From the NCBI RefSeq assembly GCF_009931435.1, contig NZ_CP043414.1: 64,000 bases of DNA, one strand, 5' to 3'. The position numbers and the translations under genes were made by a program. This stretch comes from Escherichia coli (GTDB lineage Bacteria > Pseudomonadota > Gammaproteobacteria > Enterobacterales > Enterobacteriaceae). The first letter of the stretch is position 1. Each line of letters opens with the position of its first letter. Shown here one piece after another: positions 2,263 to 47,692 of this stretch. The notes beneath the pieces were generated by a model, which ran no database searches, had not been told where the DNA came from, and saw only the letters and a list, made by a program, of their open reading frames with translations.

Positions 2263-2295
2263 GGCCGCAGGGGTGAAACTCTGCGGCCTTTTTCG
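2263..2295 (+). terminator. Intrinsic terminator after ldr copy 5, convergent with the bcsG 3' end
   Basis: Same GC stem-loop plus T-run, ending 4 nt before the bcsG stop. Confidence 0.6.
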
Positions 2296-2298
2296 TTC

Positions 2299-6194: not shown

Positions 6195-6205
6195 GGGATT
6201 GGTGA

Positions 6206-6958
6206 ATGGCCGTACTGGGATTGCAGGGGGTGCGGGGAGGCGTGGGAACAACAACCATCACTGCCGCATTAGCCTGGTCATTACAAATGTTGGGAGAAGA
6301 TGTCCTGGTGGTCGATGCCTGCCCGGACAACTTGTTGCGCCTGTCATTTAACGTCGATTTTACCCACCGTCAGGGCTGGGCCAGAGCCATGCTGGACGGT
6401 CAGGACTGGCGTGACGCCGGGTTGCGCTATACCTCGCAACTCGATTTGCTGCCTTTTGGTCAGTTATCCATTGAAGAACAAGAAAATCCACAGCACTGGC
6501 AAACCCGGCTGAGCGATATTTGCTCCGGCTTACAGCAACTAAAAGCCAGCGGGCGTTACCAGTGGATTTTAATCGACTTACCGCGTGATGCCTCGCAGAT
6601 AACCCACCAGCTGCTGAGTTTGTGCGATCACTCGCTGGCAATCGTCAATGTGGATGCCAACTGCCATATCCGGCTGCATCAGCAGGCGCTGCCGGATGGC
6701 GCGCATATTTTGATTAATGACTTCCGTATCGGCAGTCAGGTTCAGGACGATATTTACCAGCTTTGGTTGCAAAGCCAGCGCCGATTACTGCCAATGCTCA
6801 TTCATCGTGATGAAGCGATGGCTCAATGCCTGGCGGCTAAGCAACCAGTCGGTGAATACCGCAGTGATGCGCTGGCGGCTGAAGAGATACTGACGCTGGC
6901 TAACTGGTGCCTGTTGAACTATTCCGGGCTGAAAACACCAGTCGGGAGTGCATCATGA
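6206..6958 (+). CDS. bcsQ: Cellulose biosynthesis protein BcsQ (ParA/MinD-like ATPase), intact
   Basis: 250-aa uninterrupted ORF; codon 6 is TTG (Leu), where K-12 is recalled to have a TAG stop. Confidence 0.95.
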   Translation: MAVLGLQGVRGGVGTTTITAALAWSLQMLGEDVLVVDACPDNLLRLSFNVDFTHRQGWARAMLDGQDWRDAGLRYTSQLDLLPFGQLSIEEQENPQHWQTRLSDICSGLQQLKASGRYQWILIDLPRDASQITHQLLSLCDHSLAIVNVDANCHIRLHQQALPDGAHILINDFRIGSQVQDDIYQLWLQSQRRLLPMLIHRDEAMAQCLAAKQPVGEYRSDALAAEEILTLANWCLLNYSGLKTPVGSAS

Positions 6959-9573: not shown

Positions 9574-9583
9574 TGATAACGCG

Positions 9584-11923: not shown

Positions 11924-11929
11924 TTGAAG

Positions 11930-13036
11930 ATGAATGTGTTGCGTAGTGGACTCGTGACGATGCTGCTGCTGGCTGCCTTTAGTGTTCAGGCAGCCTGCAA
12001 CTGGCCTGCCTGGGAGCAGTTCAAAAAGGATTACATCAGTCAGGAAGGGCGCGTCATCGACCCCAGCGACGCGCGCAAAATCACCACCTCCGAAGGGCAA
12101 AGTTACGGCATGTTCTTTGCCCTGGCGGCTAACGACCGTGCAGCTTTCGATAATATTCTCGACTGGACGCAGAACAATCTCGCTCAGGGTTCTTTAAAAG
12201 AACATTTGCCCGCCTGGCTGTGGGGCAAGAAAGAGAACAGTAAGTGGGAAGTGCTGGACAGCAATTCGGCCTCTGATGGTGATGTCTGGATGGCCTGGTC
12301 GTTGCTGGAGGCGGGGCGTTTGTGGAAAGAGCAGCGTTATACCGACATCGGCAGCGCGTTGTTAAAACGTATTGCGCGGGAGGAAGTGGTGACGGTGCCT
12401 GGGCTGGGTTCCATGTTGTTACCGGGCAAAGTGGGATTTGCTGAGGATAACAGCTGGCGTTTTAACCCCAGCTACCTGCCGCCGACGCTGGCGCAGTATT
12501 TCACCCGCTTTGGCGCGCCGTGGACTACGCTGCGCGAAACCAATCAACGTTTATTGCTGGAAACCGCCCCGAAAGGCTTTTCACCAGACTGGGTGCGCTA
12601 TGAGAAAGACAAAGGCTGGCAGCTAAAAGCCGAAAAAACATTGATCAGCAGCTACGACGCTATCCGTGTTTACATGTGGGTAGGCATGATGCCTGACAGC
12701 GATCCGCAAAAAGCGCGGATGCTCAACCGGTTTAAACCGATGGCGACATTCACCGAGAAAAACGGCTATCCGCCGGAAAAAGTCGATGTGGCTACGGGGA
12801 AAGCGCAGGGTAAAGGACCGGTCGGTTTTTCTGCCGCCATGCTGCCCTTTTTACAAAACCGCGATGCACAGGCCGTTCAGCGCCAGCGCGTGGCCGATAA
12901 CTTTCCCGGCAGCGATGCCTATTACAACTATGTGCTGACCCTGTTTGGACAAGGCTGGGATCAACACCGTTTCCGCTTCTCGACAAAAGGTGAGTTATTA
13001 CCTGACTGGGGCCAGGAATGCGCAAATTCACACTAA
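11930..13036 (+). CDS. bcsZ: Endo-1,4-beta-glucanase BcsZ (GH8 family)
   Basis: 368-aa ORF with signal peptide, starting MNVLRSG...; matches BcsZ. Confidence 0.95.
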
Positions 13037-16000: not shown

Positions 16001-16491
16001 ATAATCGCCGTGTGACCATTGGCCTGAACAATATGATCTGGCATTACGACAAAGACCTGAGTGGGTACTCACTCGGTCAGGGCGGTTACTACAGCCCGCA
16101 GGAATACCTGTCGTTTGCCATTCCGGTGATGTGGCGTGAACGGACAGAAAACTGGTCGTGGGAGCTGGGGGCGTCTGGTTCGTGGTCGCATTCGCGCACC
16201 AAAACCATGCCGCGGTATCCGCTGATGAATCTGATCCCGACTGACTGGCAGGAAGAAGCTGCGCGGCAATCCAACGATGGCGGCAGCAGTCAGGGCTTTG
16301 GCTATACGGCGCGGGCATTACTTGAGCGTCGCGTCACATCCAACTGGTTTGTCGGTACGGCAATTGATATCCAGCAAGCGAAGGATTACGCGCCCAGCCA
16401 TTTCCTGCTCTACGTACGTTATTCCGCCGCCGGATGGCAGGGTGACATGGATTTACCGCCGCAGCCGCTGATACCTTACGCCGACTGGTAA
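13018..16491 (+). CDS. bcsC: Cellulose synthase outer-membrane subunit BcsC (TPR repeats plus C-terminal beta-barrel)
   Basis: 1157-aa ORF overlapping the bcsZ 3' end by 19 nt; matches BcsC. Confidence 0.95.
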
Positions 16492-16572
16492 GTTTTCAGA
16501 TAGCGCCTCTCTTAATGCCGCTGCGATCGGGTATACTCGGGCGGCAATCTGGGATTTCCGGGGGGAGACAAT

Positions 16573-29711: not shown

Positions 29712-30229
29712 TTCTTTGACCGATTGTTGTTCACAGCGAAACAGTAACGCGCATATCGCATTGTTTATTGTTTTTCTAACATCTAATGCCGGGTTTCACA
29801 ATGTTGTCATGACGAATGTGGCGATTTCTCAGTAGGAAAAGGGGAGAATAGCTTTATGAGAACGGTGAATCCCCTTAAACAGAGCGTATTTTTCAGCGAT
29901 TCCCTTTAAAGTGAACAGAGGACGTATTGGCTATTTGTGCTTATTTTTGTCTCATTGCCGTTTGTTATTTTGGCTTGTGGTCGCGGAATTTCATTTTTAA
30001 TTGCATGCGTACTAGCCATCAATATAAGGAAATCCTCAAAATTGTTTTAAATAATGCCCTCGACATGTAATTTCAGGCGTTTAGCTGTAACTATTTATAT
30101 CGGTAACTATTTTCTACGCGTCATCTCTGTAGAATGGCCACCGCCAAATGGCGAATTCTTATTTTTTCTCGCGGGTAATACCCTTCCACTACTTAAGTCT
30201 TTTTAACGTATTCAGGTGGAGATTCAGTT

Positions 30230-30832
30230 ATGCAAATAGTCATGTTTGACAGGCAGTCAATATTTATTCATGGAATGAAAATCAGTTTACAGCATCGTAT
30301 TCCAGGAGTGAGTATTCAGGGGGCCAGTCAGGCAGACGAGTTATGGCAAAAGCTGGAAAGTTACCCTGAAGCCTTAGTGATGCTCGATGGCGATCAGGAT
30401 GGTGAGTTTTGCTACTGGTTGCTGCAAAAAACCGTGGTGCAATTTCCTGAGGTTAAGGTGTTAATTACGGCGACGGATTGCAACAAACGGTGGTTACAGG
30501 AAGTTATTCATTTTAATGTGCTGGCCATTGTGCCTCGTGATTCAACCGTCGAGACATTTGCGTTGGCGGTCAATAGTGCGGCGATGGGGATGATGTTTCT
30601 GCCGGGAGACTGGCGAACGACGCCGGAAAAGGACATTAAAGATCTCAAATCGTTAAGCGCCCGCCAGCGGGAGATTTTAACCATGTTAGCGGCGGGCGAA
30701 TCAAATAAAGAGATCGGCAGGGCGCTGAATATCAGTACCGGAACGGTAAAAGCGCATCTGGAATCCCTGTATCGCCGTCTGGAAGTGAAAAATCGCACCC
30801 AGGCGGCAATGATGTTAAATATCTCCTCCTGA
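30230..30832 (+). CDS. yhjB: LuxR/FixJ-type regulator YhjB
   Basis: 200-aa ORF with C-terminal LuxR HTH; matches YhjB. Confidence 0.9.
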   Translation: MQIVMFDRQSIFIHGMKISLQHRIPGVSIQGASQADELWQKLESYPEALVMLDGDQDGEFCYWLLQKTVVQFPEVKVLITATDCNKRWLQEVIHFNVLAIVPRDSTVETFALAVNSAAMGMMFLPGDWRTTPEKDIKDLKSLSARQREILTMLAAGESNKEIGRALNISTGTVKAHLESLYRRLEVKNRTQAAMMLNISS

Positions 30833-30882
30833 AGAGGATAATTTTACAGCCAGCAGGACGTTAGCGGCTGGCTGTAAAAATA

Positions 30883-32562
<1,680 letters not shown>

Positions 32563-32936
32563 TTATCGGGCTTTTCTTTAAGGGTAGTCATTCGCTCCGC
32601 CTGGTGGGCGACAAAGCGTGCGGTGGATCACGTTTATTAACTTGTCAAAAAATATAACGCACTAATATCAATAGAATTTATAAAAATACGGATTCCGTGT
32701 TGTTTTTCATTTTCAGAACATTCAATCCTGCTCTCGCCGCAATCATGATATGCCATTCCTGCTCTGTATAATAGGTACAGACTATCTTATTGATAGTTTA
32801 TATTCATGTAATTGATTGATTCCTATCAAAAAGCGTATTTCCCTGTTTTTTATGATGGCTTTGTCTCGCAGAGACGTTTGCAGCATTCTGGAAAATTTTC
32901 TGGGTCACAATAACTCACCACCGTGAGGGAAGAATA

Positions 32937-34334
32937 ATGAAAATGGTCTCACGTATTACCGCGATCGGCCTGGCTGGCGTCGCGATTTGCTATTTAGGGT
33001 TATCTGGTTATGTGTGGTACCACGATAATAAACGCAGTAAACAGGCCGATGTTCAGGCATCTGCTGTCAGTGAAAATAATCAGGTTTTAGGTTTTCTTCG
33101 CGAAAAAGGATGCGACTATTGTCATACGCCTTCGGCAGAATTACCCGCCTATTATTATATTCCTGGCGCGAAACAGTTGATGGATTACGACATTAAGCTT
33201 GGATATAAATCTTTTAACCTCGAGGCCGTGCGTGCGGCTCTGTTGGCAGATAAACCCGTTTCGCAAAGCGATCTGAATAAGATTGAATGGGTGATGCAGT
33301 ATGAAACTATGCCGCCAACGCGTTACACCGCGCTACACTGGGCGGGTAAGGTGAGTGATGAAGAGCGGGCGGAAATACTTGCCTGGATTGCAAAACAGCG
33401 CGCGGAATATTACGCCAGTAATGATACTGCTCCGGAGCATCGCAATGAACCGGTGCAGCCTATTCCGCAAAAACTGCCTACCGATGCGCAAAAAGTGGCG
33501 TTGGGTTTTACGCTGTATCATGATCCCCGTTTATCGGCTGATAGCACCATTTCATGTGCACATTGCCATGCGTTAAATGCGGGTGGCGTTGATGGCAGAA
33601 AAACGTCGATTGGTGTTGGTGGTGCCGTTGGACCGATTAACGCACCGACGGTATTTAACTCAGTATTTAACGTTGAGCAGTTCTGGGATGGTCGTGCGGC
33701 AACATTGCAGGATCAGGCGGGTGGACCGCCGTTGAACCCGATTGAAATGGCGTCGAAATCCTGGGACGAAATTATTGCTAAGCTGGAAAAAGATCCGCAG
33801 CTTAAAGCGCAGTTCCTCGAAGTCTATCCGCAAGGTTTCAGTGGCGAAAATATTACTGATGCTATTGCTGAATTTGAGAAAACATTAATTACGCCGGATT
33901 CCCCATTTGATAAATGGTTGCGTGGAGATGAGAATGCGCTGACGGCGCAACAGAAAAAAGGCTATCAATTATTTAAAGATAATAAATGTGCAACTTGTCA
34001 TGGTGGTATTATTCTCGGCGGACGTTCTTTCGAGCCGTTGGGGCTGAAAAAAGACTTTAACTTTGGGGAAATTACGGCGGCGGATATTGGTCGTATGAAT
34101 GTTACTAAAGAAGAGCGTGATAAATTGCGTCAGAAAGTACCCGGTTTACGTAACGTTGCTTTAACGGCACCGTACTTCCATCGCGGTGACGTGCCGACGC
34201 TGGACGGGGCGGTAAAACTGATGCTGCGCTATCAGGTAGGCAAAGAGCTGCCGCAGGAAGATGTGGATGATATCGTAGCTTTCCTGCACAGTCTGAACGG
34301 GGTATATACGCCGTATATGCAGGATAAACAATAA
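32937..34334 (+). CDS. yhjA: Di-heme cytochrome c peroxidase YhjA
   Basis: 465-aa ORF with CxxCH motifs (CDYCH, CAHCH, CATCH). Confidence 0.9.
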   Translation: MKMVSRITAIGLAGVAICYLGLSGYVWYHDNKRSKQADVQASAVSENNQVLGFLREKGCDYCHTPSAELPAYYYIPGAKQLMDYDIKLGYKSFNLEAVRAALLADKPVSQSDLNKIEWVMQYETMPPTRYTALHWAGKVSDEERAEILAWIAKQRAEYYASNDTAPEHRNEPVQPIPQKLPTDAQKVALGFTLYHDPRLSADSTISCAHCHALNAGGVDGRKTSIGVGGAVGPINAPTVFNSVFNVEQFWDGRAATLQDQAGGPPLNPIEMASKSWDEIIAKLEKDPQLKAQFLEVYPQGFSGENITDAIAEFEKTLITPDSPFDKWLRGDENALTAQQKKGYQLFKDNKCATCHGGIILGGRSFEPLGLKKDFNFGEITAADIGRMNVTKEERDKLRQKVPGLRNVALTAPYFHRGDVPTLDGAVKLMLRYQVGKELPQEDVDDIVAFLHSLNGVYTPYMQDKQ

Positions 34335-34445
34335 TTAATTTGATCGCCCGAACAGGAATGTTTGGGCGATTTTTATTACGACAATAAAGTCTGTTTTTAA
34401 TATTATCATGTTAAACGTTTATATTATAAAAAGTCCTTTTTCTGC

Positions 34446-34465
34446 TTAGGATTTTGTTATTTAAA
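34446..34465 (+). promoter_or_regulatory. GAD box upstream of gadA (GadE/GadX/GadW binding site)
   Basis: Exact TTAGGATTTTGTTATTTAAA about 80 bp upstream of the gadA ATG. Confidence 0.8.
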
Positions 34466-34544
34466 TTAAGCCGGTAATGCCTTGCTTCCATTGCGGATAA
34501 ATCCTACTTTTTTATTGCCTTCAAATAAATTTAAGGAGTTCGAA

Positions 34545-35945
34545 ATGGACCAGAAGCTGTTAACGGATTTCCGCTCAGAACTACTCGATTCACGTTTTGG
34601 CGCAAAGGCCATTTCTACTATCGCGGAGTCAAAACGATTTCCGCTGCACGAAATGCGCGATGATGTCGCATTCCAGATTATCAATGATGAATTATATCTT
34701 GATGGCAACGCTCGTCAGAACCTGGCCACTTTCTGCCAGACCTGGGACGACGAAAACGTCCATAAATTGATGGATTTGTCGATCAACAAAAACTGGATCG
34801 ACAAAGAAGAATATCCGCAATCTGCAGCTATCGACCTGCGTTGCGTAAACATGGTTGCTGACCTGTGGCATGCGCCTGCGCCGAAAAATGGTCAGGCCGT
34901 TGGCACCAACACCATTGGCTCTTCCGAGGCCTGTATGCTCGGCGGGATGGCGATGAAATGGCGTTGGCGCAAGCGTATGGAAGCCGCAGGCAAGCCAACG
35001 GATAAACCTAATCTGGTGTGCGGCCCGGTACAAATCTGCTGGCATAAATTTGCCCGTTACTGGGATGTGGAGCTGCGTGAAATCCCTATGCGCCCCGGTC
35101 AGTTGTTTATGGATCCGAAACGCATGATTGAAGCCTGCGACGAAAACACCATCGGCGTGGTGCCGACTTTCGGCGTGACCTACACCGGTAACTATGAATT
35201 CCCGCAACCGCTGCATGATGCACTGGATAAATTCCAGGCCGACACCGGTATCGACATCGACATGCACATCGACGCCGCCAGCGGTGGCTTCCTGGCACCG
35301 TTCGTCGCCCCGGATATCGTCTGGGACTTCCGCCTGCCGCGTGTGAAATCGATCAGTGCTTCAGGCCATAAATTCGGTCTGGCTCCGCTGGGCTGCGGCT
35401 GGGTTATCTGGCGTGATGAAGAAGCGCTGCCGCAGGAACTGGTGTTCAACGTTGACTATCTCGGTGGTCAGATTGGGACTTTCGCCATCAACTTCTCCCG
35501 CCCGGCGGGTCAGGTGATTGCACAGTATTATGAATTCCTGCGCCTCGGTCGTGAAGGCTATACCAAAGTACAGAACGCTTCCTACCAGGTTGCCGCTTAT
35601 CTGGCGGATGAAATCGCCAAACTGGGGCCGTATGAGTTCATCTGTACCGGTCGCCCGGACGAAGGCATCCCGGCGGTTTGCTTCAAACTGAAAGATGGTG
35701 AAGACCCGGGATACACCCTCTACGACCTCTCTGAACGTCTGCGCCTGCGCGGCTGGCAGGTTCCGGCCTTCACTCTCGGCGGTGAAGCCACTGACATCGT
35801 GGTGATGCGCATTATGTGCCGTCGTGGCTTCGAAATGGACTTTGCTGAACTGTTACTGGAAGACTACAAAGCCTCCCTGAAATACCTCAGCGATCACCCG
35901 AAACTGCAGGGTATAGCCCAGCAGAACAGCTTTAAACACACCTGA
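34545..35945 (+). CDS. gadA: Glutamate decarboxylase GadA (466 aa)
   Basis: Starts [19 protein letters not shown]...; called gadA and not gadB because gadX follows. Confidence 0.95.
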
Positions 35946-35964
35946 TAACATAATTTTGTAAAAA

Positions 35965-36010
35965 CCGAATGCCCCGACCTTAAAAAACAGGTGGGGCATT
36001 CGGTTACTTA
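35965..36010 (+). terminator. Stem-loop downstream of gadA
   Basis: ccgaatgcccc...ggggcattcgg palindrome; weak U-tail. Confidence 0.4.
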
Positions 36011-36313
36011 TTCATGCAATAATATATTGGCTGTTTATTCATCGTGTTGATAAGATATATGTTATATGAATGTTATTAAGGGTGGCGAGACCGTTTAATA
36101 TCACAATAAGGGATTATTTGCTTACTAATAATTTCCCTGCGTTTTTAACGCCTTTTTTTGTATTATAAATCCAGTTATCCAGCCCGACTATCATCACACA
36201 TCATCATCCTGTTTTCCCGCTTCGTTTAAATTTATTTATCAATCAATTTGACTTAAGAGGGCGGCGTGCTACATTAATAAACAGTAATATGTTTATGTAA
36301 TATTAAGCCGACT

Positions 36314-37138
36314 ATGCAATCACTACATGGTAATTGTCTAATTGCGTACGCAAGACATAAATATATTCTCACCATGGTTAATGGTGAATATCGCTATTTT
36401 AATGGCGGTGAACTGGTTTTTGCGGATGCAAGTCAAATTCAAGTGGATAAGTGTGTCGAGAATTTTGTATTAGTTTCAAGGGACACGCTTTCATTATTTC
36501 TCCCGATGCTCAAGGAGGAGGCATTAAATCTTCATGCACATAAAAAAGTTCCTTCGTTACTCGTTCATCACTGTACCAGAGATATTCCTGTTTTTCAGGA
36601 GGTTGCGCAACTATCGCAGAATAAGAATCTGCGCTATGCAGAAATGCTCCGTAAAAGAGCATTAATCTTTGCGTTGTTATCTGTTTTCCTGGAGGACGAG
36701 CAGTTTATACCGCTGCTTCTGAACGTTTTGCAACCGAACATGCGAACACGAGTTTGTACGGTCATCAATAATAATATCGCCCATGAGTGGACATTAGCCC
36801 AAATCGCCAGCGAGCTGTTGATGAGTTCAAGCCTGTTAAAGAAAAAATTGCGCGAAGAAGGTACGTCATATTCACAGTTGCTTACTGAGTGTAGAATGCA
36901 ACGTGCTTTACAACTTATTGTTATACATGGGTTTTCAATTAAAAGAGTCGCAGTGTCCTGTGGTTATCACAGCGTGTCGTATTTCATTTACGTTTTTCGA
37001 AATTATTATGGGATGACGCCCACAGAGTATCAGGAGCGATCGGCACAAGAATTGCCGAACCGTGACTCGGTGGCAAGTATTGTTGCACAAGGGAATTTTT
37101 ACGGCACTGACCGTTCTGCGGAAGGAATAAGATTATAG
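36314..37138 (+). CDS. gadX: AraC-family acid resistance regulator GadX
   Basis: 274-aa ORF matching GadX. Confidence 0.95.
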   Translation: MQSLHGNCLIAYARHKYILTMVNGEYRYFNGGELVFADASQIQVDKCVENFVLVSRDTLSLFLPMLKEEALNLHAHKKVPSLLVHHCTRDIPVFQEVAQLSQNKNLRYAEMLRKRALIFALLSVFLEDEQFIPLLLNVLQPNMRTRVCTVINNNIAHEWTLAQIASELLMSSSLLKKKLREEGTSYSQLLTECRMQRALQLIVIHGFSIKRVAVSCGYHSVSYFIYVFRNYYGMTPTEYQERSAQELPNRDSVASIVAQGNFYGTDRSAEGIRL

Positions 37139-37154
37139 AGTTTTACTCAGACAT

Positions 37155-37260
37155 AAAAAAAACCCGGCATAGGGGACCGGGAAGAGGATAGTCTGCCGTC
37201 TCCAGACTAATAAACCGTTATAACACTCCCTGTTGGCACGGGAAACTTTGTGCTCTCAGT
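37155..37260 (-). ncRNA. gadY: GadY small RNA, antisense to the gadX 3' UTR
   Basis: Reverse complement begins ACTGAGAGCACAAAGTTTCCCGTGCCAACAGGG... and ends in CCCGGTCCCCTATGCCGGGTTTTTTTT, matching GadY as recalled. Confidence 0.8.
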
Positions 37261-37506
37261 AAGTTAAATATAACTTTTACTGGAAATAAGATCAGCCATT
37301 TTTTTATAAACATAAGCTATACGCTGTGTGAAAATATATTGGTGTTGCATTTACTTATTATCAATTAACTGTTATGCAAAACTACTTTGTGGATAAATTT
37401 TGGTCCTACCAAATATGGCAGTTTTTGCACTAAGAAACAGTCTGGCGTCATTTCATTAGTATACTGAAATTGAAATAATCGCAGTAATGAAATATAAGGG
37501 ATAGTC

Positions 37507-38235
37507 ATGACTCATGTCTGCTCGGTGATCCTCGTTCGTCGTTCATTGGATATTCATCATGAACAGCAAAAAATATCGTTGCACAACGAAAGTATTCTAC
37601 TGCTGGATAAAAATTTGGCAGATGATTTTGCGTTTTGTTCACCGGATACGCGACGGCTGGATATCGATGAGCTGACAATTTGCCATTACTTACAAAATAT
37701 TCGTCAGCTACCACGCAATTTAGGGTTACATAGCAAAGACCGTTTGTTAATTAACCAGTCCCCCCCCATGCCTCTGGTGACGGCGATTTTTGATAGTTTC
37801 AATGAATCCGGGGTAAATTCGCCGATAATGAGCAAGATGCTTTACCTTTCCTGTTTATCAATGTTTTCTCATAAGAAAGAACTTATCCCCTTACTTTTCA
37901 ATAGTATCAGTACTGTTTCAGGAAAAGTTGAACGCCTTATTAGCTTTGATATCGCTAAACGTTGGTATCTACGCGATATCGCGGAAAGAATGTATACCAG
38001 CGAGAGTCTCATCAAAAAAAAGTTGCAGGATGAAAATACCTGTTTCAGTAAAATATTACTCGCCTCCAGGATGTCGATGGCCAGACGATTACTCGAGTTA
38101 CGTCAAATTCCTCTACATACTATTGCAGAAAAATGTGGGTATAGCAGTACGTCGTACTTTATAAACACATTTCGACAATATTATGGTGTAACGCCACATC
38201 AGTTTGCGCAACATTCTCCGGGTACCTTCTCCTGA
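37507..38235 (+). CDS. gadW: AraC-family acid resistance regulator GadW
   Basis: 242-aa ORF matching GadW. Confidence 0.95.
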   Translation: MTHVCSVILVRRSLDIHHEQQKISLHNESILLLDKNLADDFAFCSPDTRRLDIDELTICHYLQNIRQLPRNLGLHSKDRLLINQSPPMPLVTAIFDSFNESGVNSPIMSKMLYLSCLSMFSHKKELIPLLFNSISTVSGKVERLISFDIAKRWYLRDIAERMYTSESLIKKKLQDENTCFSKILLASRMSMARRLLELRQIPLHTIAEKCGYSSTSYFINTFRQYYGVTPHQFAQHSPGTFS

Positions 38236-38597
38236 CCTATTTCGTATTTGAATATTGGTCAGGATCTCGCACCTGCTTCATGTGAAACTCTTTCCTGATG
38301 ATCTCTTCCGGGCTACCGGCAAGATCTCTTTCGTAGTTAGCCAGGCGGTATAGGTATTTTCAGGAGGAAAAGACTCGGCATGTTTGGGATTATTAAGCTG
38401 ACAATTCATACGATTACGGGAATGTGGGTCAGTATTGTGCTGTTCAAATTGATGACGAATGGCTGGAGTGGCTTCTACTTTCAGTGCTGTGTACTAAGCC
38501 TGGTATTCCTGACGGTCAGCTGGTTGTTGAGTGGTGAATGGTTAGCAGGAAAGAGTAAGGCTGAACCCTCACGTTCAACCTTACTCTCATTTACACG

Positions 38598-41500
38598 TTA
38601 CGCTTTTTTAAAGCGGGCAAAGAGATGTTCCACTACAACGAAAAAGACTGGAACGAAGTAAATGGCCAGCACTGTTGCGGCAAACATCCCGCCCATCACG
38701 CCGGTACCTACCGCGTTTTGCGCGCCGGAACCGGCACCATGACTGATTACCAGCGGCAGCACGCCGAGAATAAAGGCCAGAGAGGTCATCAGGATTGGGC
38801 GTAAACGCATTCGCGCCGCTTCGATGATCGCCTCTATCGGCGTTTTCCCTTCTTTCTGCATCATCTCAACGGCAAATTCGACGATCAGGATGGCGTTCTT
38901 GGCGGAAAGCCCGATGGTAGTCAGCAAACCAACCTGGAAGTAGACGTCATTACTTAAGCCGCGCAGATCGGTGGCCAGTAATGCGCCAACGACGCCTAAC
39001 GGTACAACCAACATCACCGAGAACGGAATTGACCAGCTCTCATAAAGTGCGGCAAGGGCGAGGAACACCACGACCAGTGAAATGGCATACAGCGCGGGAG
39101 CCTGGTTTGAGGATAACGCTTCCTGATAAGACAGTCCGGTCCATGAGTAGCCGACGCCTGCCGGAAGTTTAGCGACCAGGTCTGCCATAAATTTCATGGC
39201 GTCACCGGTACTTTTCCCGGCCGCCGCTTCTCCTAAAATCTCCATTGACGGGATACCGTTGTAGCGTTCCAGTCGCGGCGAACCATAGGTCCATTCGGTA
39301 GACGAATAGGCAGAAAGCGGTGCCATCGTGCCAGAGGCGTTGCGTACATACCACTGGTTGATGTTATCCGGCAACATACGGAACGGCGTGCCTGCCTGGA
39401 CATACACTTTTTTCACCCGTCCCTGGTTGAGGAAGTCGTTCACGTAGCTGCTGCCGAAGGCGGTGGAAATTGTCTGGTTGATATCGGACAGCGCCACGCC
39501 CATTGCCTCGGCTTTCGCGGCATTGACGTTAACTTTGAACATTGGCGTATCTTCCAGGCCGTTCGGGCGTACCCCGGTAACCTGGTTCGGCGATTGCGCA
39601 GCCAGTGATAACAGCTCGTTTCGCGCCTGGGTCAGTTTTTCGTGCCCCAGGTTACCGTTGTCCAGCAGTTCCATATCAAAACCTGATGCGGTACCCAGTT
39701 CAGCCACCGCGGGTAAGTTGAACGGGAAGACGACGGCTTTATTGATACTGCTTAGCGCAATCATTGCCCGCTGAATGATCGCGGTAACTGAGTTTTCCTC
39801 GCCGACACGTTCAGACCACGGCTTGAGGCTGATAAACGCCAGACCGTTGTTTTGCCCCTGGCCACTGAAGCCAAAGCCGCCAACGGTAAACACCGACTGA
39901 ACATTATCTTTCTCTTTTGTCAGATAATAATCAGTCACCTGTTGCAGCACTTTCGTGGTGTTAACCATGGTTGCACCGGAAGGTAACTGCGCGGTGGTCA
40001 TAAATACCCCCTGATCCTCTTCTGGTAAGAAAGAGGTCGGCGTACGCAGGAACAGCACCGCCATCCCGGCGCAAATCAGCAGGTAGACCACCATGTAGCG
40101 ACCGGTACAACGCAACAGTGAGCGGGTGCTATCGGTATAGTGCTGAGTTGATTTTTCAAACAGCGTGTTGAAGCGTGCGAACAGGGCGTTAGGTTTGTGA
40201 CCGCCTTCCGGCGCGGCTTTCAGAATGGTGGCGCACAGGGCAGGGGTCAGGCTCATTGCGACAAATACTGAAAGCAGCATCGAGGAGATCAGCGTGATGG
40301 AGAACTGTCGGTAGATCTCCCCGGTTGCACCGCTCATAAAGGCCATCGGCATAAACACTGCGGAAAGCACAACGGCAATCCCGACCAGCGCACGTTGGAT
40401 CTGCCCCATGGATTTATGCGTTGCTTCCTTCGGCGGTAGCTTATCTTCCGCAATGACACGCTCGACGTTCTCCACCACCACGATGGCGTCATCCACCAAC
40501 AACCCTATCGCCAGCACCATCCCGAACATGGTGAGGGTGTTGATGGTGAAACCGACCGCCGACAAGATCGCAAACGTCCCGAGAATAACCACCGGTACGG
40601 CAATCGTCGGGATGATTGTGGCTCGGAAATTCTGCAAAAACAGATACATGACCAGGAAGACGAGGATGATAGCCTCAACCAGCGTTTTGAAAACTTCCTG
40701 AATAGAAATTTTGATAAACGGTGTGGTGTCGTAAGGATAAACCGTCTTCAGGCTTGCGGGGAAATAAGCCGATAAACGGTTCAGCTCCTCTTTCACCGCT
40801 CGCGAGGTATCCAGGGCGTTTGCTCCGGTAGCCAGTTTGATGGCGATACCGGCAGCAGGTTTGCCGTTATAGCGCGCCACGGTGGAATAATCTTCCGCCC
40901 CAAGTTCGACGCGGGCGACATCACGCAGCAGCACTTGCGAGCCATCTTGCTGAACTTTCAACAGGATTTTGCCAAATTCTTCCGGCGTTTGCAGACGCGT
41001 CTGCACAATGATCGAGGCGTTCAGTTGCTGGTCTGCCGCCTGTGGCATGCCACCCAGTTGACCACCAGAAATCTGGTTGTTTTGCACCTTAATCTGGGAA
41101 ATAACATCGGAAGGTACCAGGTTGTATTTATTGAGTTTTTGCGGGTCCAGCCAGATACGCATGGCATACTCGGAACCAAAGAGTTGTACGCTACCAACGC
41201 CCGCGGTACGGCTTAGCGGGTCTTTGATATTAGACGCTACATAGTCCGCGATATCGTACTGGTTGAGACTGCCGTTATCAGAAATGAACGCCGCTACCAT
41301 CAGGATATTACTGCTCGACTTATCGACGCTAATACCCTGCTGCTGCACCGCTTCAGGTAATGAAGGCATAGCGAGTTGCAGTTTATTTTGCACCTGAACC
41401 TGCGCGATATCAGGCGATGTCCCCGTCTCAAAGGTCAGAGTGATGGAGGCATTACCCGCCGCATCGCTGGTTGAAGACATGTACATCAGGCCATCAAGCC

Positions 41501-41711
41501 CATTCATATTTTGCTCAATCACCTGAGTGACCGAGTCTTCTACCGTTTGCGCATCGGCACCCGGATAGGTTGCGCTGACGGTAATGGTTGGTGGCGCAAT
41601 CTGCGGATATTGCGCAACCGGTAAGTTCATGATCGCCAGACCACCTGCAAGCATCATAATAATGGCAAGTACCCAGGCAAAAACCGGGCGATCAATAAAA
41701 TAGTTAGCCAT
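38598..41711 (-). CDS. mdtF: RND multidrug efflux transporter MdtF
   Basis: 1037-aa ORF matching MdtF (AcrB family). Confidence 0.95.
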
Positions 41712-41735
41712 GAAAGTCCCCTTAAGCCTGCAACG

Positions 41736-42893
41736 TTATTGTTTCGATTCGGTGCTGGCGTTTTCCTGGCTGGAGGAAATTGCACGTGCTTTGATACCCG
41801 GATGAATACGTTGCAAACCGGAAACGATCACCCGATCGCCAGCCTGCAAGCCAGAGGTGACAACCCACTGGTCGCCGATGGCTTTGCTGGCTTCAATTTC
41901 GCGTAGCTGCACAACATCGTCTTTATCCAGAATGAGCGCCGTTGCTTTACCCTGGGCGTTGTGGGTGACGCCTTCCTGCGGCACCAGTAATACATTCTGG
42001 CGGCTACCTTCATCCACTAATGCCGTGACATACATACCTGGCAGCAAGTCACCATTTGGGTTGGGGAAAATCGCCCGTAACGTCACGGAGCCCGTGGTTT
42101 CATCCACCGTCGGGTCGGAGAATTTCAGCGTGCCGGTCTGGCTGTAACGTTTACCATTTTCCAGATTGAGCTGTACTGGCGTACTGCCCTGAACCTGTTT
42201 GATTTGTCCACTGGCGACCTCTTCTTTCATGCGCAAAAAATCCTGCACCGACTGCGTGAGATCGACATAAATCGGGTCCAGACGTTGCACGGTAACCAGT
42301 GAATCGGCTTGATTAGCGGTAACGAGTGCGCCGACGGTCACCGACGATTTCCCGCTGACGCCCGTAATCGGCGAGGTGACATTCGCGTATTGCAGATTGA
42401 TCGTCGCCTGTTCAACAGCCGCTTTGGCGACGGTGACATTGGCTTCTGCTTCATTCAGCTGGGTGCGCGCGGTGTCGTAATCCTGACGGCTAACGTAGTT
42501 GGTCTTCAGCAATGATGCCTGGCGGTTAAAGGTGATGCGGGCATTGCTGGCGGTTGAGAGTGCTTTCGCCAACGAGCCTTTGGCGGAGTTTAGATCGGCC
42601 TGTAAAGGCGCAGGATCAATCTGATACAGCGAATCGCCCTGGTTCACTTTATCGCCTTCGATAAAGTTGCGTTTAATGATAATACCGCCCACCTGAGGGC
42701 GTATCTCGGCAACTTCATAAGGAACGGTTCTACCAGGCAATTCGCTCAACACATTGACCGAACCGGGGGAGAGTGTGACGACACCGACCTCAGGCGTCAT
42801 GGCGGCGGCGTTTTCCGTCGATTTGTCATCGCAGGCGGTGAGCATCGCGCCGCAGAATAACAACGGTATTAACAGTTTTCTTCTTCTGTTCAT
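41736..42893 (-). CDS. mdtE: RND efflux membrane fusion protein MdtE
   Basis: 385-aa lipoprotein-type ORF matching MdtE. Confidence 0.95.
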   Translation of the reverse strand: MNRRRKLLIPLLFCGAMLTACDDKSTENAAAMTPEVGVVTLSPGSVNVLSELPGRTVPYEVAEIRPQVGGIIIKRNFIEGDKVNQGDSLYQIDPAPLQADLNSAKGSLAKALSTASNARITFNRQASLLKTNYVSRQDYDTARTQLNEAEANVTVAKAAVEQATINLQYANVTSPITGVSGKSSVTVGALVTANQADSLVTVQRLDPIYVDLTQSVQDFLRMKEEVASGQIKQVQGSTPVQLNLENGKRYSQTGTLKFSDPTVDETTGSVTLRAIFPNPNGDLLPGMYVTALVDEGSRQNVLLVPQEGVTHNAQGKATALILDKDDVVQLREIEASKAIGDQWVVTSGLQAGDRVIVSGLQRIHPGIKARAISSSQENASTESKQ

Positions 42894-43231
42894 TTTAGTC
42901 CCTGAAAATTCTTGAGATATAACGGTTCTTTAAATTGCGCGCGAGGAGAGGTATGAGGGATTTACAGACCAGCGGCATAGTGGGGTTGTCAGCCAGTAAG
43001 ATGGGATGCAAGCACAGTGATCGACATGGTGAGGTCAACGACAAAAAAAATGTTGCCGTTCTGCCAACAGTTCCTGCCAGCATTCGGGCAACGAAGGGTT
43101 CTACTGGTGGATACACATACCAGGGGAATAAAGTCGTTTTCGCCTCTCCTTTAGTCATCACCGGGGATAATGAAATCAGCATCTGCATCCCTCTTCATGC
43201 CTGCCATCATTTTCAGTTAATTATGTCCTGA

Positions 43232-43759
43232 CTAAAAATAAGATGTGATACCCAGGGTGACGATGTCGCTCATACGTCTTAGTTTCAGCTTGTACATAAT
43301 GTTGAATTTCTGAATCTTTAATGTTTGTTGCGAAATATTGAGCGTTGACGTGATATTGCTTTCGTTTTTGTTTTTCAGAATCAGCTGCATAATTTTGAAC
43401 TGATTATGTGAAAAACATAATTGTGAATTCTTATGGGGCAAGTGTTTACCATAAGTAATCTCAAGAAGATTTTTGATACTTTCTTTGCGGCTGACAAAAT
43501 AAATAGGCGCTTTAGCTTTTAGTTTACTGATGTGATAAGGTGCCAAAACAATAATTCTCTCGGCGTCTAATTTCTCCAGAAATTTAATCGCTTCTTCATC
43601 AAGGATATGGTTGTGATAGGTATCAATGATAACCTTGAAGGGTTTATTACCTACTTTTTTGATCTCTGACAGGGAATTGATTTTTATCATTTCGTGATTA
43701 TCTTTCAACTGCCAAAAGCCCTGTAAAAGAAAAGAATCTTTCGTCATGAGAAAAATCAT
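43232..43759 (-). CDS. gadE: LuxR-family acid resistance activator GadE (175 aa)
   Basis: Starts MIFLMTKDSFLLQGFWQ...; the 201-aa track ORF is an upstream extension. Confidence 0.9.
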   Translation of the reverse strand: MIFLMTKDSFLLQGFWQLKDNHEMIKINSLSEIKKVGNKPFKVIIDTYHNHILDEEAIKFLEKLDAERIIVLAPYHISKLKAKAPIYFVSRKESIKNLLEITYGKHLPHKNSQLCFSHNQFKIMQLILKNKNESNITSTLNISQQTLKIQKFNIMYKLKLRRMSDIVTLGITSYF

Positions 43760-44557
43760 AACTTGCTCCTTAGCCGTTATCGTTTCGAACATGTCATCCT
43801 TTTCATTATTTACATCCCTGTCCGAATCGTTGTTCAATATAGTAAACGCCTATAAGAACCTTGCCCTTCGTGAACTAATACGTCTATTAACACTAATCAA
43901 TACTTCAGATTTATCCATCACGCACTCCATATATTGATCCTAAGTAAAATTCCTGGTTGTTATCAGATTGTAAACTGCAAACAAAAAATTAACGTTTGCG
44001 GATTACTGCCCAAGAATAAGTTATCAATAACCAGTTTGTGATCTCTGAAGAATATTACTAAAGTTAAAATGTAATCCGATTTAAATATCGAGTCTCCTTG
44101 TTTCGACTTAAGCTGGCAATTGGATTGCCAGCTTTCTTTTAACGCATTGAAATTACCTGAGTAAATAACTCATTCATGTCTTCAGGTTTTTATATAGCGT
44201 CTGGAGACACGGATATTTATGCAATGTAATCAACGCCAGTTGCAAAAAAATGAACCCGGATTACTTATTTAACCGCCCATAGCATCAACGTTTACGGAAC
44301 TCTTTGTTCACTTTCCCACAGCACTTTTAAAACATTAAACCTGACTACGGAAAATATCAGCCATGATAATGTTTGAAATGGCTAATTTGCCATGCAATGA
44401 AAAAAATCAGATAAAATTCAGTAGGTTGAAATACTCATCAGCAGGTAATTATTTCAATGATAGCGCGCAATTGATCTAAAATGCTGTGTAGCGGAGAGAG
44501 TATTAATTGGATCATAGTCACATCAAGTGACTATGATCCAGGTGGCAATAGGGATAA

Positions 44558-45130
44558 TTATTGCTTTTTAACAAACAAACTGGCGAAGCTGAACAGGCTA
44601 GCGGCGCTAAATATCAGTTCAATTCCCACTAGTGTGGAAACCAGCGTTACAGAAACCATCGGCGTAGCACCAAGGAATATCCAGGCAATGACGATATCCA
44701 GCACACCAATAACGAGCTGTAGCCAACTGCCTTTCATTGAACGCTGACGATACCAACTCATCAGGCGAATAACCCCTGCCACACAGAACAAACCGGCAAT
44801 AAATGCCGCAATGGCAAAAATGCCCAGCTCTGGTGCGCGGATGAAGAAATAGCCGATCAATAAATAGGCGACTGCGACGAGGAAACCGGATAATACCGGC
44901 CAGAAATTATGACTGCGGTTGCTGAATAACCCGACAATAAGCGCAATACCCGAGCAGATTAATAATGCACCCACTACTGTGCTTAAAATATCGCCAGAGA
45001 CGAACGGAAAACTGATACACAGCAACCCGACGATAAACAGCAGCACGGCAATAAACTGGATTGCTCTGCGATGTTTTTTAAGCATCTCCAGATCAAACTT
45101 CAAAATTGTTGCCTTATCTATATATAACAT
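44558..45130 (-). CDS. hdeD: Acid resistance membrane protein HdeD
   Basis: 190-aa membrane ORF matching HdeD. Confidence 0.95.
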   Translation of the reverse strand: MLYIDKATILKFDLEMLKKHRRAIQFIAVLLFIVGLLCISFPFVSGDILSTVVGALLICSGIALIVGLFSNRSHNFWPVLSGFLVAVAYLLIGYFFIRAPELGIFAIAAFIAGLFCVAGVIRLMSWYRQRSMKGSWLQLVIGVLDIVIAWIFLGATPMVSVTLVSTLVGIELIFSAASLFSFASLFVKKQ

Positions 45131-45384
45131 AGAACCACCCTATAAAATTAAGAAGAAAATCCCCTGCTATCAATCTATGCCAAAAACGCGTCTAAGAATG
45201 CAGTCGATTTAATAAAAATTTCCTAATTACAGTATCAGATGCATCTGTAACTCATTGTATTAAAATAAAAATATCTGATTTTGATATTTTCCATCAACAT
45301 GACATATACAGAAAACCAGGTTATAACCTCAGTGTCGAAATTAATTCGTGACGGCTCTTTCACTTTATAGTTGAGGATATTACG

Positions 45385-45717
45385 ATGAAAAAAGTATTAG
45401 GCGTTATTCTTGGTGGTCTGCTTCTTCTGCCAGTGGTGAGCAATGCAGCGGATGCACAAAAAGCAGCTGATAACAAAAAACCGGTCAACACCTGGACCTG
45501 TGAAGATTTTCTGGCTGTGGACGAATCCTTCCAGCCAACTGCAGTTGGTTTTGCTGAAGCACTGAACAATAAAGATAAACCAGAAGATGCGGTTTTAGAT
45601 GTTCAGGGTATTGCAACCGTAACCCCAGCGATCGTTCAGGCTTGTACTCAGGATAAACAAGCCAACTTTAAAGATAAAGTTAAAAGCGAATGGGACAAAG
45701 TTAAGAAAGATATGTAA
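45385..45717 (+). CDS. hdeA: Periplasmic acid stress chaperone HdeA
   Basis: 110-aa ORF with signal peptide matching HdeA. Confidence 0.95.
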   Translation: MKKVLGVILGGLLLLPVVSNAADAQKAADNKKPVNTWTCEDFLAVDESFQPTAVGFAEALNNKDKPEDAVLDVQGIATVTPAIVQACTQDKQANFKDKVKSEWDKVKKDM

Positions 45718-45832
45718 TTCCGGGAATACGTTACATCGTACTTCCTTGCATATTGAACAGGTAGGAATACCTTCTTCAAAAGCAGCTATTCCTTCTGTTC
45801 ATATTTAATCTCTATATTGAATGGGTTACAAA

Positions 45833-46159
45833 ATGAATATTTCATCTCTCCGTAAAGCGTTTATTTTTATGGGCGCTGTAGCGGCTTTGTCACTGGTGAA
45901 CGCACAATCTGCGCTGGCAGCCAATGAATCCGCTAAAGATATGACTTGCCAGGAATTTATTGATCTGAATCCAAAAGCAATGACACCGGTTGCGTGGTGG
46001 ATGCTGCATGAAGAAACAGTTTATAAAGGTGGTGATACTGTTACTTTAAATGAAACCGATCTTACTCAAATTCCTAAAGTGATCGAATACTGCAAAAAAA
46101 ATCCGCAGAAAAATTTGTATACTTTCAAAAATCAAGCATCTAATGACTTGCCGAATTAA
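45833..46159 (+). CDS. hdeB: Periplasmic acid stress chaperone HdeB (108 aa)
   Basis: Starts MNISSLRKAFIFMGAVAALSL...; matches HdeB. Confidence 0.95.
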   Translation: MNISSLRKAFIFMGAVAALSLVNAQSALAANESAKDMTCQEFIDLNPKAMTPVAWWMLHEETVYKGGDTVTLNETDLTQIPKVIEYCKKNPQKNLYTFKNQASNDLPN

Positions 46160-46222
46160 TGGGGCACAAGTAAAAAGGAGTAGCAAGTTGAGCCATCTTG
46201 CTGCTCCTTTTTGCATTTTTAT

Positions 46223-46870
46223 ATGACAGCAGAATTTATTATACGTCTTATACTCGCAGCAATTGCCTGTGGCGCTATTGGCATGGAAAGGCAAATGCGC
46301 GGCAAAGGAGCAGGGTTACGCACACATGTATTAATTGGCATGGGAAGCGCCCTGTTTATGATTGTTTCGAAATATGGTTTTGCTGACGTGCTGTCTTTAG
46401 ATCACGTCGGACTGGACCCCAGCCGTATTGCTGCTCAGGTGGTGACGGGCGTCGGGTTTATCGGTGCAGGTAACATTCTCGTTCGTAACCAAAATATTGT
46501 AGGTCTGACGACGGCAGCGGATATCTGGGTGACCGCCGCCATTGGTATGGTTATTGGTAGCGGTATGTACGAACTGGGCATTTATGGTTCAGTGATGACC
46601 TTACTGGTGCTGGAAGTCTTCCATCAATTAACCTTCCGCCTGATGAATAAAAATTACCATTTACAGCTGACATTAGTGAACGGTAATACGGTATCAATGC
46701 TCGACTGGTTTAAGCAGCAAAAAATAAAAACGGATTTAGTTTCGTTGCAGGAAAATGAAGATCATGAAGTGGTCGCCATTGATATCCAGCTTCATGCCAC
46801 GACGTCGATAGAAGATCTGTTGCGATTATTAAAAGGTATGGCAGGGGTGAAAGGCGTTTCAATTAGCTAA
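46223..46870 (+). CDS. yhiD: MgtC-family inner membrane protein YhiD
   Basis: 215-aa ORF starting MTAEFIIRLILAAIACG...; matches YhiD. Confidence 0.9.
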   Translation: MTAEFIIRLILAAIACGAIGMERQMRGKGAGLRTHVLIGMGSALFMIVSKYGFADVLSLDHVGLDPSRIAAQVVTGVGFIGAGNILVRNQNIVGLTTAADIWVTAAIGMVIGSGMYELGIYGSVMTLLVLEVFHQLTFRLMNKNYHLQLTLVNGNTVSMLDWFKQQKIKTDLVSLQENEDHEVVAIDIQLHATTSIEDLLRLLKGMAGVKGVSIS

Positions 46871-46890
46871 TCTATATAGTTATTTATTCG

Positions 46891-46924: not shown

Positions 46925-47692
46925 ATGATCGAGGACGATCAGTGGTGAATGGTTGGCAGGATCTTTAAGTACGGTAATATCCGCGCCGTAGAGCATTGTC
47001 AGCGCCTGCTGTGTCAATACGTCCTGCGGTTTACCATTTGCGATAACCTTTCCTTTTTGCATTAATACAACACGGTCTGCATAACGCGCGGCAAGATTTA
47101 GATCGTGCAATACGCAGCAAACATTGAACTGCCGTTCGTGAACTAGCTGGCGTAATAAACGAAACAAGTGCTGCTGATGGTGAATATCCAGCGCCGAAGT
47201 TGGTTCATCAAGAAATAACCATTTCGGTGAGGGAGTTGGTTCCCAGAGTTGCACCAGCAGGCGCGCTAATTGCACGCGCTGTTGTTCACCACCGGATAAT
47301 TGCCGATAGTCGCGGTTTGCTAACGCCTGACAGTCACATAACGCCATTATTTGTGCTGTTTCATTATCCTGATTACCAGTACGATGCGGATGCCGCCCCA
47401 TCTGGATAACTTCTTGTACGCTGAATGGAAACGCCATGTGGCTATTTTGACGCATCACGGCCCGGTGTTTCGCCAGTTCAGTAATCGACCATTCATTTAA
47501 TGGCTTATTAAACAACCGACATTCGCCGCTATCAGGTTGAAGATAGCCGGTTAACTGGCGAAGCAGCGTAGATTTTCCCGCACCATTAGGGCCGAGAATG
47601 GCAACAATTTCCCCACCGGGAAAAGTCAGCGAGACATTATCAGTCAGACGCCGCCCCTGAAGGCTATAAACCAGATTCTGGGCGCTGATCAT
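46922..47692 (-). CDS. chuV: Heme ABC transporter ATP-binding protein ChuV
   Basis: 256-aa ORF starting [11 protein letters not shown]... with Walker [10 protein letters not shown] and ABC signature LSGGEQQR; 4-nt overlap with chuU. Confidence 0.9.

What the first reader, a model, noticed from the sequence alone, without database searches (positions are those of the whole stretch)
34446..34465. Perfect GAD box upstream of gadA
The 20-bp consensus TTAGGATTTTGTTATTTAAA occurs exactly, supporting an intact GadE/GadX/GadW-dependent promoter in a strain that also carries the chu island.
Basis: partly seen in the sequence, partly recalled or inferred. Interest (0 to 1): 0.15.

Follow-up and report, generated by a model that had tools for sequence, protein, structure and literature searches.

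The report
Standard GAD box in gadA promoter
The 20-base sequence is the well-known GadE/RcsB activator site of the E. coli gadA acid-resistance promoter; it sits in its textbook position here, is present in nearly every E. coli genome, and is therefore ordinary.

Summary
TTAGGATTTTGTTATTTAAA occurs exactly once, at 34446-34465 (+), 79 bp upstream of the gadA start codon (34545). About 1e-7 exact matches would be expected by chance.

It is the published GAD box. By homology to K-12 it lies at -72 to -53 of the gadA promoter, 16 bp upstream of the -35 element, as described in the literature. The rest of the promoter is also conserved: -35, -10, the RcsB box and an upstream GadX/GadW-like motif. 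gadA, gadX, gadW and gadE are full length, and GadA and GadE are 100% identical to the K-12 proteins. A complete eight-gene chu island lies at 46925-55871, between yhiD and dctR.

GadX and GadW act mainly through a separate upstream site and through gadE.

None of this is unusual. At least 19 of the 20 box bases are exact at gadA in 5397 of 5426 complete E. coli genomes. The same box precedes gadB and occurs in E. albertii, E. whittamii and a further Escherichia species. About 39% of complete genomes carry the same island-plus-chu arrangement.

Verdict: already known, low interest.

The parts
34446..34465 (+). GAD box, the 20-bp GadE-RcsB activator site, at -72 to -53 of the gadA promoter
   Evidence: Exact and unique match. 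Identical to the K-12 gadA and gadB boxes. Position derived. Function taken from PMC2887963.
34482..34487 (+). -35 element TTGCTT of the gadA promoter (inferred by homology)
   Evidence: It lies 16 bp downstream of the box, as stated in PMC2887963, and is identical to K-12. TTGC is invariant in 11 gadA/gadB promoters. The simple sigma-70 scan did not pick it up because it is a weak hexamer.
34495..34508 (+). RcsB box (GGATAAATCC...) abutting or overlapping the -10 element; a low-affinity repressor site. Boundaries are approximate.
   Evidence: PMC2887963 places it just upstream of -10 and says gadB has a C for the G at its left end. That difference is visible in alignments A2 and A3. The sequence is identical to K-12.
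34505..34510 (+). -10 element TACTTT (inferred by homology); 17-bp spacer from the -35 element
   Evidence: Identical to K-12 and invariant in 11 promoters. Lies at -13 to -8 relative to the inferred start.
34518..34518 (+). Inferred gadA transcription start (+1); 27-nt leader before the ATG at 34545
   Evidence: Primers named gadA-176 and gadA+77 in PMC3050690 map to 34342 and 34594, and both give +1 = 34518. This puts the box centre at -62.5, matching the published 'centered 63 bp upstream'.
34387..34406 (+). GadX/GadW-type motif AAGTCTGTTTTTAATATTAT, at -131 to -112
   Evidence: 17 of 20 bases match the published GadX/W motif, with 0 matches expected by chance (motif from PMC4918353). Identical to K-12.
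34342..34379 (+). ccp (yhjA) intrinsic terminator: hairpin followed by a T-run
   Evidence: Terminator scan found a 13-pair stem and a T-run. It lies directly after the ccp stop codon (32937-34334).
34545..35945 (+). gadA, glutamate decarboxylase A (466 aa)
   Evidence: 100% amino-acid identity to K-12 GadA. TIGR01788 scores 693 bits.
36314..37138 (+). gadX, AraC-type activator (274 aa)
   Evidence: 95.6% identical to K-12 GadX over the full length. The NF007432 GadX equivalog scores 594 bits against a cutoff of 500.
37150..37263 (-). GadY small RNA
   Evidence: Rfam RF00122, 150 bits, full length.
37507..38235 (+). gadW, AraC-type regulator (242 aa)
   Evidence: 97.1% identical to K-12 GadW over the full length.
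43235..43762 (-). gadE, the LuxR-type activator that acts at the GAD box (175 aa)
   Evidence: 100% amino-acid identity to K-12 GadE.
46925..55871 (.). chu heme-uptake island (chuVUYXWT on the - strand, chuAS on the + strand), inserted between yhiD and dctR
   Evidence: All eight proteins are full length and 99.4-100% identical to those of strain E200086. The shuA/chuA thermoregulator lies at 52786-52817.

Best explanation
The 20-mer is the GAD box of the gadA promoter, an upstream activator site at -72 to -53. When GadE accumulates (stationary phase, acid, or the EvgA-YdeO and GadX/W inputs to gadE), a GadE-RcsB heterodimer binds the box. It then activates RNA polymerase at the weak TTGCTT-17-TACTTT promoter 16 bp downstream and drives gadA(-gadX) transcription for glutamate-dependent acid resistance. 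The left half (TTAGGA) resembles an RcsB half-site. [quoted passage not shown] Shown here: sequence identity, position, conservation, and intact gadA, gadE, gadX and gadW. Inferred from K-12 experiments in the literature: binding and activation.
For: The match is exact and unique, with 1.2e-7 expected by chance. The ccp-gadA intergenic region aligns with K-12 at 98% identity; there are 5 substitutions (-162, -136, -102, -82, -45), and none falls in the box, the -35, the -10 or the RcsB box. The positions agree with the literature: centre at -62.5, 16 bp from the -35, and inside the -50 to -76 GadE+RcsB DNase I footprint (PMC2887963; primer-based +1 mapping). Between the window's gadA promoter and K-12's paralogous gadB promoter the box is 20/20 identical. 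The 16 bp to its right are 2/16 identical and the 20 bp to its left 5/20, so the box is an isolated island of identity under selection. At least box positions 1-19 are exact at gadA in 5397 of 5426 complete E. coli genomes. This follows because any megablast hit to the 36-mer needs an exact 28-mer, which always spans query positions 9-28; 5220 of these hits are 100% identical over the aligned part. The exact box sits 79-80 bp upstream of gadA or gadB in E. albertii, E. whittamii and Escherichia sp. E1V33 although the flanks have diverged. GadE is 100% identical to K-12 GadE.
Against: No binding or expression data exist for this strain. rcsB lies outside the window, so the co-activator could not be checked. 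The transcription start is transferred from K-12 by homology, not measured. The cross-species loci were retrieved by exact match to the box, so they cannot reveal species in which the box has changed. Older literature, as summarised in PMC6128205, also has GadX and GadW binding around the box.
Confidence: 0.93

Rival explanations
1. The 20-mer is chiefly a GadX/GadW (AraC-type) binding site. Through it these regulators would activate gadA directly, or repress it competitively.
For: PMC6128205 summarises older work stating that GadW and GadX can act as repressors by competitively binding the gad box sequences. From memory (paper not held), Ma et al. 2002 reported MBP-GadX and MBP-GadW shifting DNA around the box.
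Against: The published GadX/W motif (AtGtcTGATtTttatattat) differs from the GAD box. Its best copy lies at 34387-34406, upstream of the box. PMC2887963 draws separate GadXW and GAD boxes and shows that the -50 to -76 footprint requires GadE and RcsB together. From memory, Tramonti et al. 2006 centre the shared 44-bp GadX/W site at -110.5 of gadA, which corresponds to about 34386-34429 here.
Confidence: 0.05
2. The identity of the box between gadA and gadB, and across strains, is a by-product of gene conversion between the two nearly identical paralogues. It would not reflect selection on a protein-binding site.
For: gadA and gadB coding regions and their proximal promoters (-35 to ATG) are very similar: 53/66 between the window's gadA and K-12 gadB. 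That is compatible with conversion tracts reaching into the promoter.
Against: The box is separated from the similar proximal promoter by a 16-bp spacer that is only 2/16 identical. It is flanked upstream by unrelated sequence, 5/20 identical. A conversion tract would not leave an isolated 20/20 block. The M1 point mutation in the box abolishes binding and GadE activation in K-12 (PMC2887963).
Confidence: 0.01
3. The sequence is a chance A+T-rich match with no specific role, or merely part of the H-NS-bound A+T-rich upstream region.
For: The intergenic region is 30% G+C. [quoted passage not shown] Three exact copies occur by chance in unrelated metagenome-assembled genomes among 298 Gb.
Against: Only 1.2e-7 exact matches are expected per window. 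The register relative to the promoter is fixed in every Escherichia copy. The box is nearly invariant in 5397 of 5426 genomes. Published mutational and footprint evidence supports a specific site.
Confidence: 0.01

Closest known systems
GAD box of the E. coli K-12 gadA promoter (Castanie-Cornet & Foster 2001; Ma et al. 2003; Castanie-Cornet et al. 2010, PMC2887963)
   Same: The 20-bp sequence is identical, as are the distance to the -35, -10 and ATG, the flanking genes (ccp upstream, gadA-gadX-gadW downstream) and the GadE protein.
   Different: There are only five substitutions elsewhere in the 210-bp intergenic region (-162, -136, -102, -82, -45). This strain also carries the chu island within the acid fitness island, which K-12 lacks.
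GAD box of the gadBC promoter (K-12)
   Same: Same 20-mer (20/20), same spacing to the -35, and a similar core promoter and leader.
   Different: It is a paralogous locus elsewhere on the chromosome. Its flanks are unrelated (2/16 and 5/20 identity next to the box). From memory of Tramonti et al. 2006, its GadX/W site lies much further upstream (-220.5).
RcsB / RcsAB box (consensus TaAGaatatTCctA)
   Same: The left half of the GAD box (TTAGGAT) resembles an RcsB half-site, and RcsB is an obligatory partner at the box (PMC2887963).
   Different: The GAD box is asymmetric and needs GadE as the partner. The true RcsB-homodimer box of this promoter is a separate element at about 34495-34508 next to the -10.
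GadX/GadW binding site (42-44 bp; core AtGtcTGATtTttatattat)
   Same: It belongs to the same promoter and the same regulon. A 17/20 copy is present at 34387-34406, and another at 45271-45290 in the hdeA-hdeD intergenic region.
   Different: It is a different sequence, bound by different (AraC-type) proteins, and lies 40 bp upstream of the GAD box.

Membership tests
GAD box (GadE-RcsB site of gadA/gadBC promoters) | 20-bp sequence matching TTAGGAttTTgTTATTTAAa, including the conserved G whose mutation (M1) abolishes binding | tested here: met
   20/20 exact at 34446-34465. The consensus is quoted in PMC4918353 and the M1 mutation is described in PMC2887963.
GAD box (GadE-RcsB site of gadA/gadBC promoters) | Centred about 63 bp upstream of the transcription start and 16 bp upstream of the -35 element | tested here: met
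   The box lies at -72 to -53 (centre -62.5) with exactly 16 bp to TTGCTT. The +1 position is transferred from K-12 through primer names in PMC3050690; it was not measured in this strain.
GAD box (GadE-RcsB site of gadA/gadBC promoters) | Located upstream of a glutamate decarboxylase gene (gadA or gadBC) | tested here: met
   The gadA ATG is at 34545. GadA is 100% identical to the K-12 protein, TIGR01788 scores 693 bits, and the synteny ccp-gadA-gadX-gadW holds.
GAD box (GadE-RcsB site of gadA/gadBC promoters) | The cognate activator GadE is encoded and intact | tested here: met
   gadE at 43235-43762 (-) encodes 175 aa, 100% identical to K-12 GadE.
GAD box (GadE-RcsB site of gadA/gadBC promoters) | The co-activator RcsB is present | not testable with these tools
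   rcsB lies elsewhere on the chromosome, outside the 64-kb window.
GAD box (GadE-RcsB site of gadA/gadBC promoters) | GadE-RcsB heterodimer binding, and GadE-dependent activation at acid pH or in stationary phase | not testable with these tools
   This needs EMSA, footprinting or a reporter assay. It is known for the identical K-12 sequence (PMC2887963).
GadX/GadW binding site | Match to the GadX/W motif AtGtcTGATtTttatattat | tested here: not met
   The 34446-34465 sequence is not among the matches with up to 3 mismatches. The matches are at 34387-34406 and 45271-45290. The GAD box is therefore not filed as a GadX/W site, although a GadX/W-type site exists upstream in the same promoter.

The most novel reading that the evidence does not exclude
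The lineage-specific substitutions around the invariant box could subtly retune gadA expression in this poorly represented lineage. They lie at -45 (T>G, between the box and the -35), at -82, and at -102 and -136 (-102 inside the likely GadX/W and H-NS region, -136 at its upstream edge). They might, for example, shift the balance between H-NS silencing and GadX/W anti-silencing while the GadE-RcsB site itself is kept.
Probability: 0.05. Interest if true: 0.15.

Novelty: already known. Interest (0 to 1): 0.04.

Why it matters
It matters little beyond annotation. The result confirms that this strain has the standard, apparently intact regulatory and structural parts of glutamate-dependent acid resistance: the GAD box, core promoter, gadA, gadE, gadX, gadW and GadY. 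It also has a complete chu heme-uptake island inserted in the acid fitness island, a combination shared by roughly four in ten complete E. coli genomes. The near-invariance of the 20-mer across 5,397 genomes, across two paralogous promoters and across several Escherichia species illustrates purifying selection on a transcription-factor site. It adds no new biology.

Tried and rejected
1. I searched the window with the ChIP-exo GadE motif TTARGAWWWWAAATA (PMC4918353), allowing up to 1 mismatch. It gave 0 matches, not even at the canonical box, so this motif is not useful for finding further GadE sites here.

2. The simple sigma-70 scan did not detect the real gadA promoter. It reported three A+T-rich consensus matches upstream at 34378-34430. 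I rejected these as promoters because the published architecture and the conservation point to TTGCTT-17-TACTTT.

3. I tried to read the primary GadX/GadW papers (PMC1698215, PMC135476, PMC135039). None is held, and a search for the '44-bp' site found nothing. The -110.5 position of the GadX/W site therefore rests on my memory of Tramonti et al. 2006.

4. The GTDB species scan returned three exact 20-mers in Lentisphaeria and Bacteroidales metagenome-assembled genomes. None has a gad homologue in the fetched locus, and I rejected them as chance matches. About 0.5 are expected for uniform composition in 2 x 298 Gb, and more in A+T-rich genomes.

5. I considered whether the gene was gadB rather than gadA. 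Synteny and 100% identity to GadA rule this out.

6. The minus-strand ORF 34466-34708 (80 aa, TTG start) overlaps the promoter and the gadA 5' end. It has no annotation in related genomes and I treated it as spurious.

Full report
**Observation**

The window reads TTAGGATTTTGTTATTTAAA at 34446-34465 on the + strand. This is the only match in the 64 kb on either strand, even with three mismatches allowed; dinucleotide-preserving shuffles gave a mean of 0.01 matches. From the window's base composition, 1.2e-7 exact matches are expected. The string is the published asymmetric GadE site, quoted as TTAGGAttTTgTTATTTAAa in PMC4918353.

**Which gene and which locus**

- The first ATG downstream is at 34545. 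The 466-aa product is 100% identical to K-12 GadA and passes the glutamate decarboxylase equivalog TIGR01788 at 693 bits against a cutoff of 380.
- The window aligns with K-12 in a single collinear piece from yhjB to yhiD: window 30124-46873, 96.8% identity.
- The gene order is that of the acid fitness island: ccp (32937-34334), gadA, gadX (36314-37138), GadY (37150-37263, -), gadW (37507-38235), mdtF and mdtE (-), gadE (43235-43762, -), hdeD, hdeAB, yhiD.
- All these proteins are full length. GadE is 100% identical to K-12, GadX 95.6% and GadW 97.1%.
- Between yhiD and dctR lies a complete eight-gene chu island (chuVUYXWT, chuAS, 46925-55871). Each protein is 99.4-100% identical to that of another E. 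coli strain, and the chuA thermoregulator is present.

**Promoter anatomy**

The 210-bp ccp-gadA intergenic region is 98% identical to K-12. It has five substitutions, and none lies in a known element.

PMC3050690 uses primers named gadA-176 and gadA+77 after Tramonti et al.. They map to 34342 and 34594 in the window, and both place +1 at 34518. The positions that follow are:

| Element | Window coordinates | Position relative to +1 |
|---|---|---|
| GAD box | 34446-34465 | -72 to -53 (centre -62.5) |
| -35 TTGCTT | 34482-34487 | -36 to -31; 16 bp after the box |
| -10 TACTTT | 34505-34510 | -13 to -8; 17-bp spacer |
| ATG of gadA | 34545 | +28 (27-nt leader) |

This matches PMC2887963 in three respects. 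That paper describes a 20-bp box 'centered 63 bp upstream', '16 bp upstream of the -35 element', and a GadE+RcsB DNase I footprint from -50 to -76.

The RcsB repressor box that the paper places just upstream of the -10 is present at about 34495-34508 (GGATAAATCC...). The stated G/C difference at its left end between gadA and gadB is visible in the alignments.

A 17/20 match to the published GadX/GadW motif lies at 34387-34406, which is -131 to -112. A second lies at 45271-45290 in the hdeA-hdeD intergenic region. None is expected by chance. From memory of Tramonti et al. 2006 (paper not held), the shared 44-bp GadX/W site of gadA is centred at -110.5, which would be about 34386-34429 here and includes this motif.

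The ccp terminator hairpin is at 34342-34371.

The simple sigma-70 scan missed the real promoter because its -35 hexamer is weak. That fits an activator-dependent promoter.

**How it most likely works**

According to PMC2887963, GadE alone does not bind the box. A GadE-RcsB heterodimer binds it with an apparent constant of about 10 nM and activates gadA transcription in vitro. A single G-to-C change in the box abolishes both binding and GadE activation in vivo. High RcsB levels repress through the box next to the -10.

The window's box and core promoter are base-for-base identical to K-12, and GadE is identical too. The same mechanism is therefore inferred here with high confidence. This step is inferred, not shown: no binding or expression data exist for this strain, and rcsB is outside the window.

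The 20-mer itself is the GadE/RcsB element. GadX and GadW have their own motif upstream and also act through gadE. PMC6128205 does summarise older claims that GadX and GadW can compete at the box.

**Selection on the box**

- Between the window's gadA promoter and K-12's paralogous gadB promoter the box is 20/20 identical. The 16-bp spacer to its right is 2/16 identical and the 20 bp to its left 5/20. An isolated island of identity like this argues against gene conversion as the cause and for selection on the site.
- Within E. coli, a 36-mer centred on the box hits 5397 of 5426 complete genomes. Megablast needs an exact 28-mer, and every 28-mer within a 36-mer spans query positions 9-28. Each hit therefore implies that box positions 1-19 are exact. 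Of these hits, 5220 are 100% identical over the aligned part.
- The intergenic region as a whole is found in 5412 genomes.
- In one genome per species (GTDB, 298 Gb), the exact 20-mer occurs 11 times.
  - Eight are in Escherichia: two E. coli-labelled representatives, E. albertii, E. whittamii and Escherichia sp. E1V33. All lie 79-80 bp upstream of a gadA or gadB start codon although the flanks have diverged.
  - Three are in unrelated metagenome-assembled genomes with no gad gene nearby. That number is roughly what chance predicts.
- Caveat: these loci were retrieved by exact match, so species whose box has changed are invisible to this scan.

**Comparison with what is known, and novelty**

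This is the GAD box of gadA itself, not a relative of it. All sequence-level defining features were tested and met: sequence, position, target gene and cognate regulator. Binding and regulation cannot be tested with these tools.

Co-occurrence with chu is common. 2118 of 5426 complete genomes cover at least 80% of the same 24-kb stretch including chu. From memory, this is the arrangement known from O157:H7 (O-island 140).

The only mildly unusual point is that the window is never more than 99.3% identical to any complete RefSeq E. coli genome over the segments tested, and typically 97.7-98.8%. Its lineage is therefore poorly represented, or it is a Shigella, which that collection excludes. That does not affect the finding.

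**Verdict**

- The feature is already known, and interest is about 0.04.
- The most novel reading not excluded is that the five lineage-specific substitutions around the box retune regulation. I put its probability at about 0.05 and its interest, if true, as modest.

Noticed in passing
window 1-2296: A 484-bp unit is repeated 4.7 times in tandem (95% matches). It carries five full-length Rfam rdlD antitoxin matches at 57-122, 540-605, 1024-1089, 1508-1573 and 1991-2056, all on the - strand. This is a tandem array of ldr/rdl type I toxin-antitoxin modules next to the bcs cellulose operon. From memory, K-12 has a single ldrD/rdlD copy here. Other complete E. coli genomes align across the array in one piece, so it is not unique.
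   Followed up: partly
window 57435-58664 (-): A 410-aa ORF between slp and arsC has no NCBIfam family. It is only 63.5% identical to the hypothetical protein at the same position in strain E200086. It sits where K-12 has the IS5-disrupted pseudogene yhiS. This is a fast-diverging gene of unknown function at the edge of the acid fitness island.
   Followed up: partly
whole window: No complete RefSeq E. coli genome (5426 searched) exceeds 99.3% identity to the segments tested. Typical best values are 98.8% for 1-16500 and 97.7% for 40000-64000. Only one genome (strain 2013C-4282) has an identical ccp-gadA intergenic region. The source is a poorly represented E. coli lineage, or a Shigella, which that collection excludes.
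   Followed up: partly
L010:2530-4786 and L013:2-2312: In Escherichia sp. E1V33 and E. whittamii, gadA with its exact GAD box lies directly next to treF. No ccp homologue lies between them, unlike in E. coli and E. albertii.
   Followed up: no
L011:143-162, L012:6379-6398, L014:4178-4197: Exact copies of the 20-mer occur in a Lentisphaeria and two Bacteroidales metagenome-assembled genomes. None has a gad homologue in the fetched locus. That number is roughly what chance predicts for 298 Gb.
   Followed up: partly
window 43043-43114 (-), 52786-52817 (+), 61495-61577 and 61728-61812 (-): Other Rfam matches at gathering score: the ES205 sRNA just downstream of gadE (the position of gadF in the K-12 annotation), the shuA/chuA 5' UTR thermoregulator in front of chuA, and two AgrB antisense RNAs beside dinQ.
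   Followed up: no
window 45271-45290 (+): A second 17/20 match to the GadX/GadW motif lies in the hdeA-hdeD divergent intergenic region. This is consistent with that region being a known GadX/W target.
   Followed up: no
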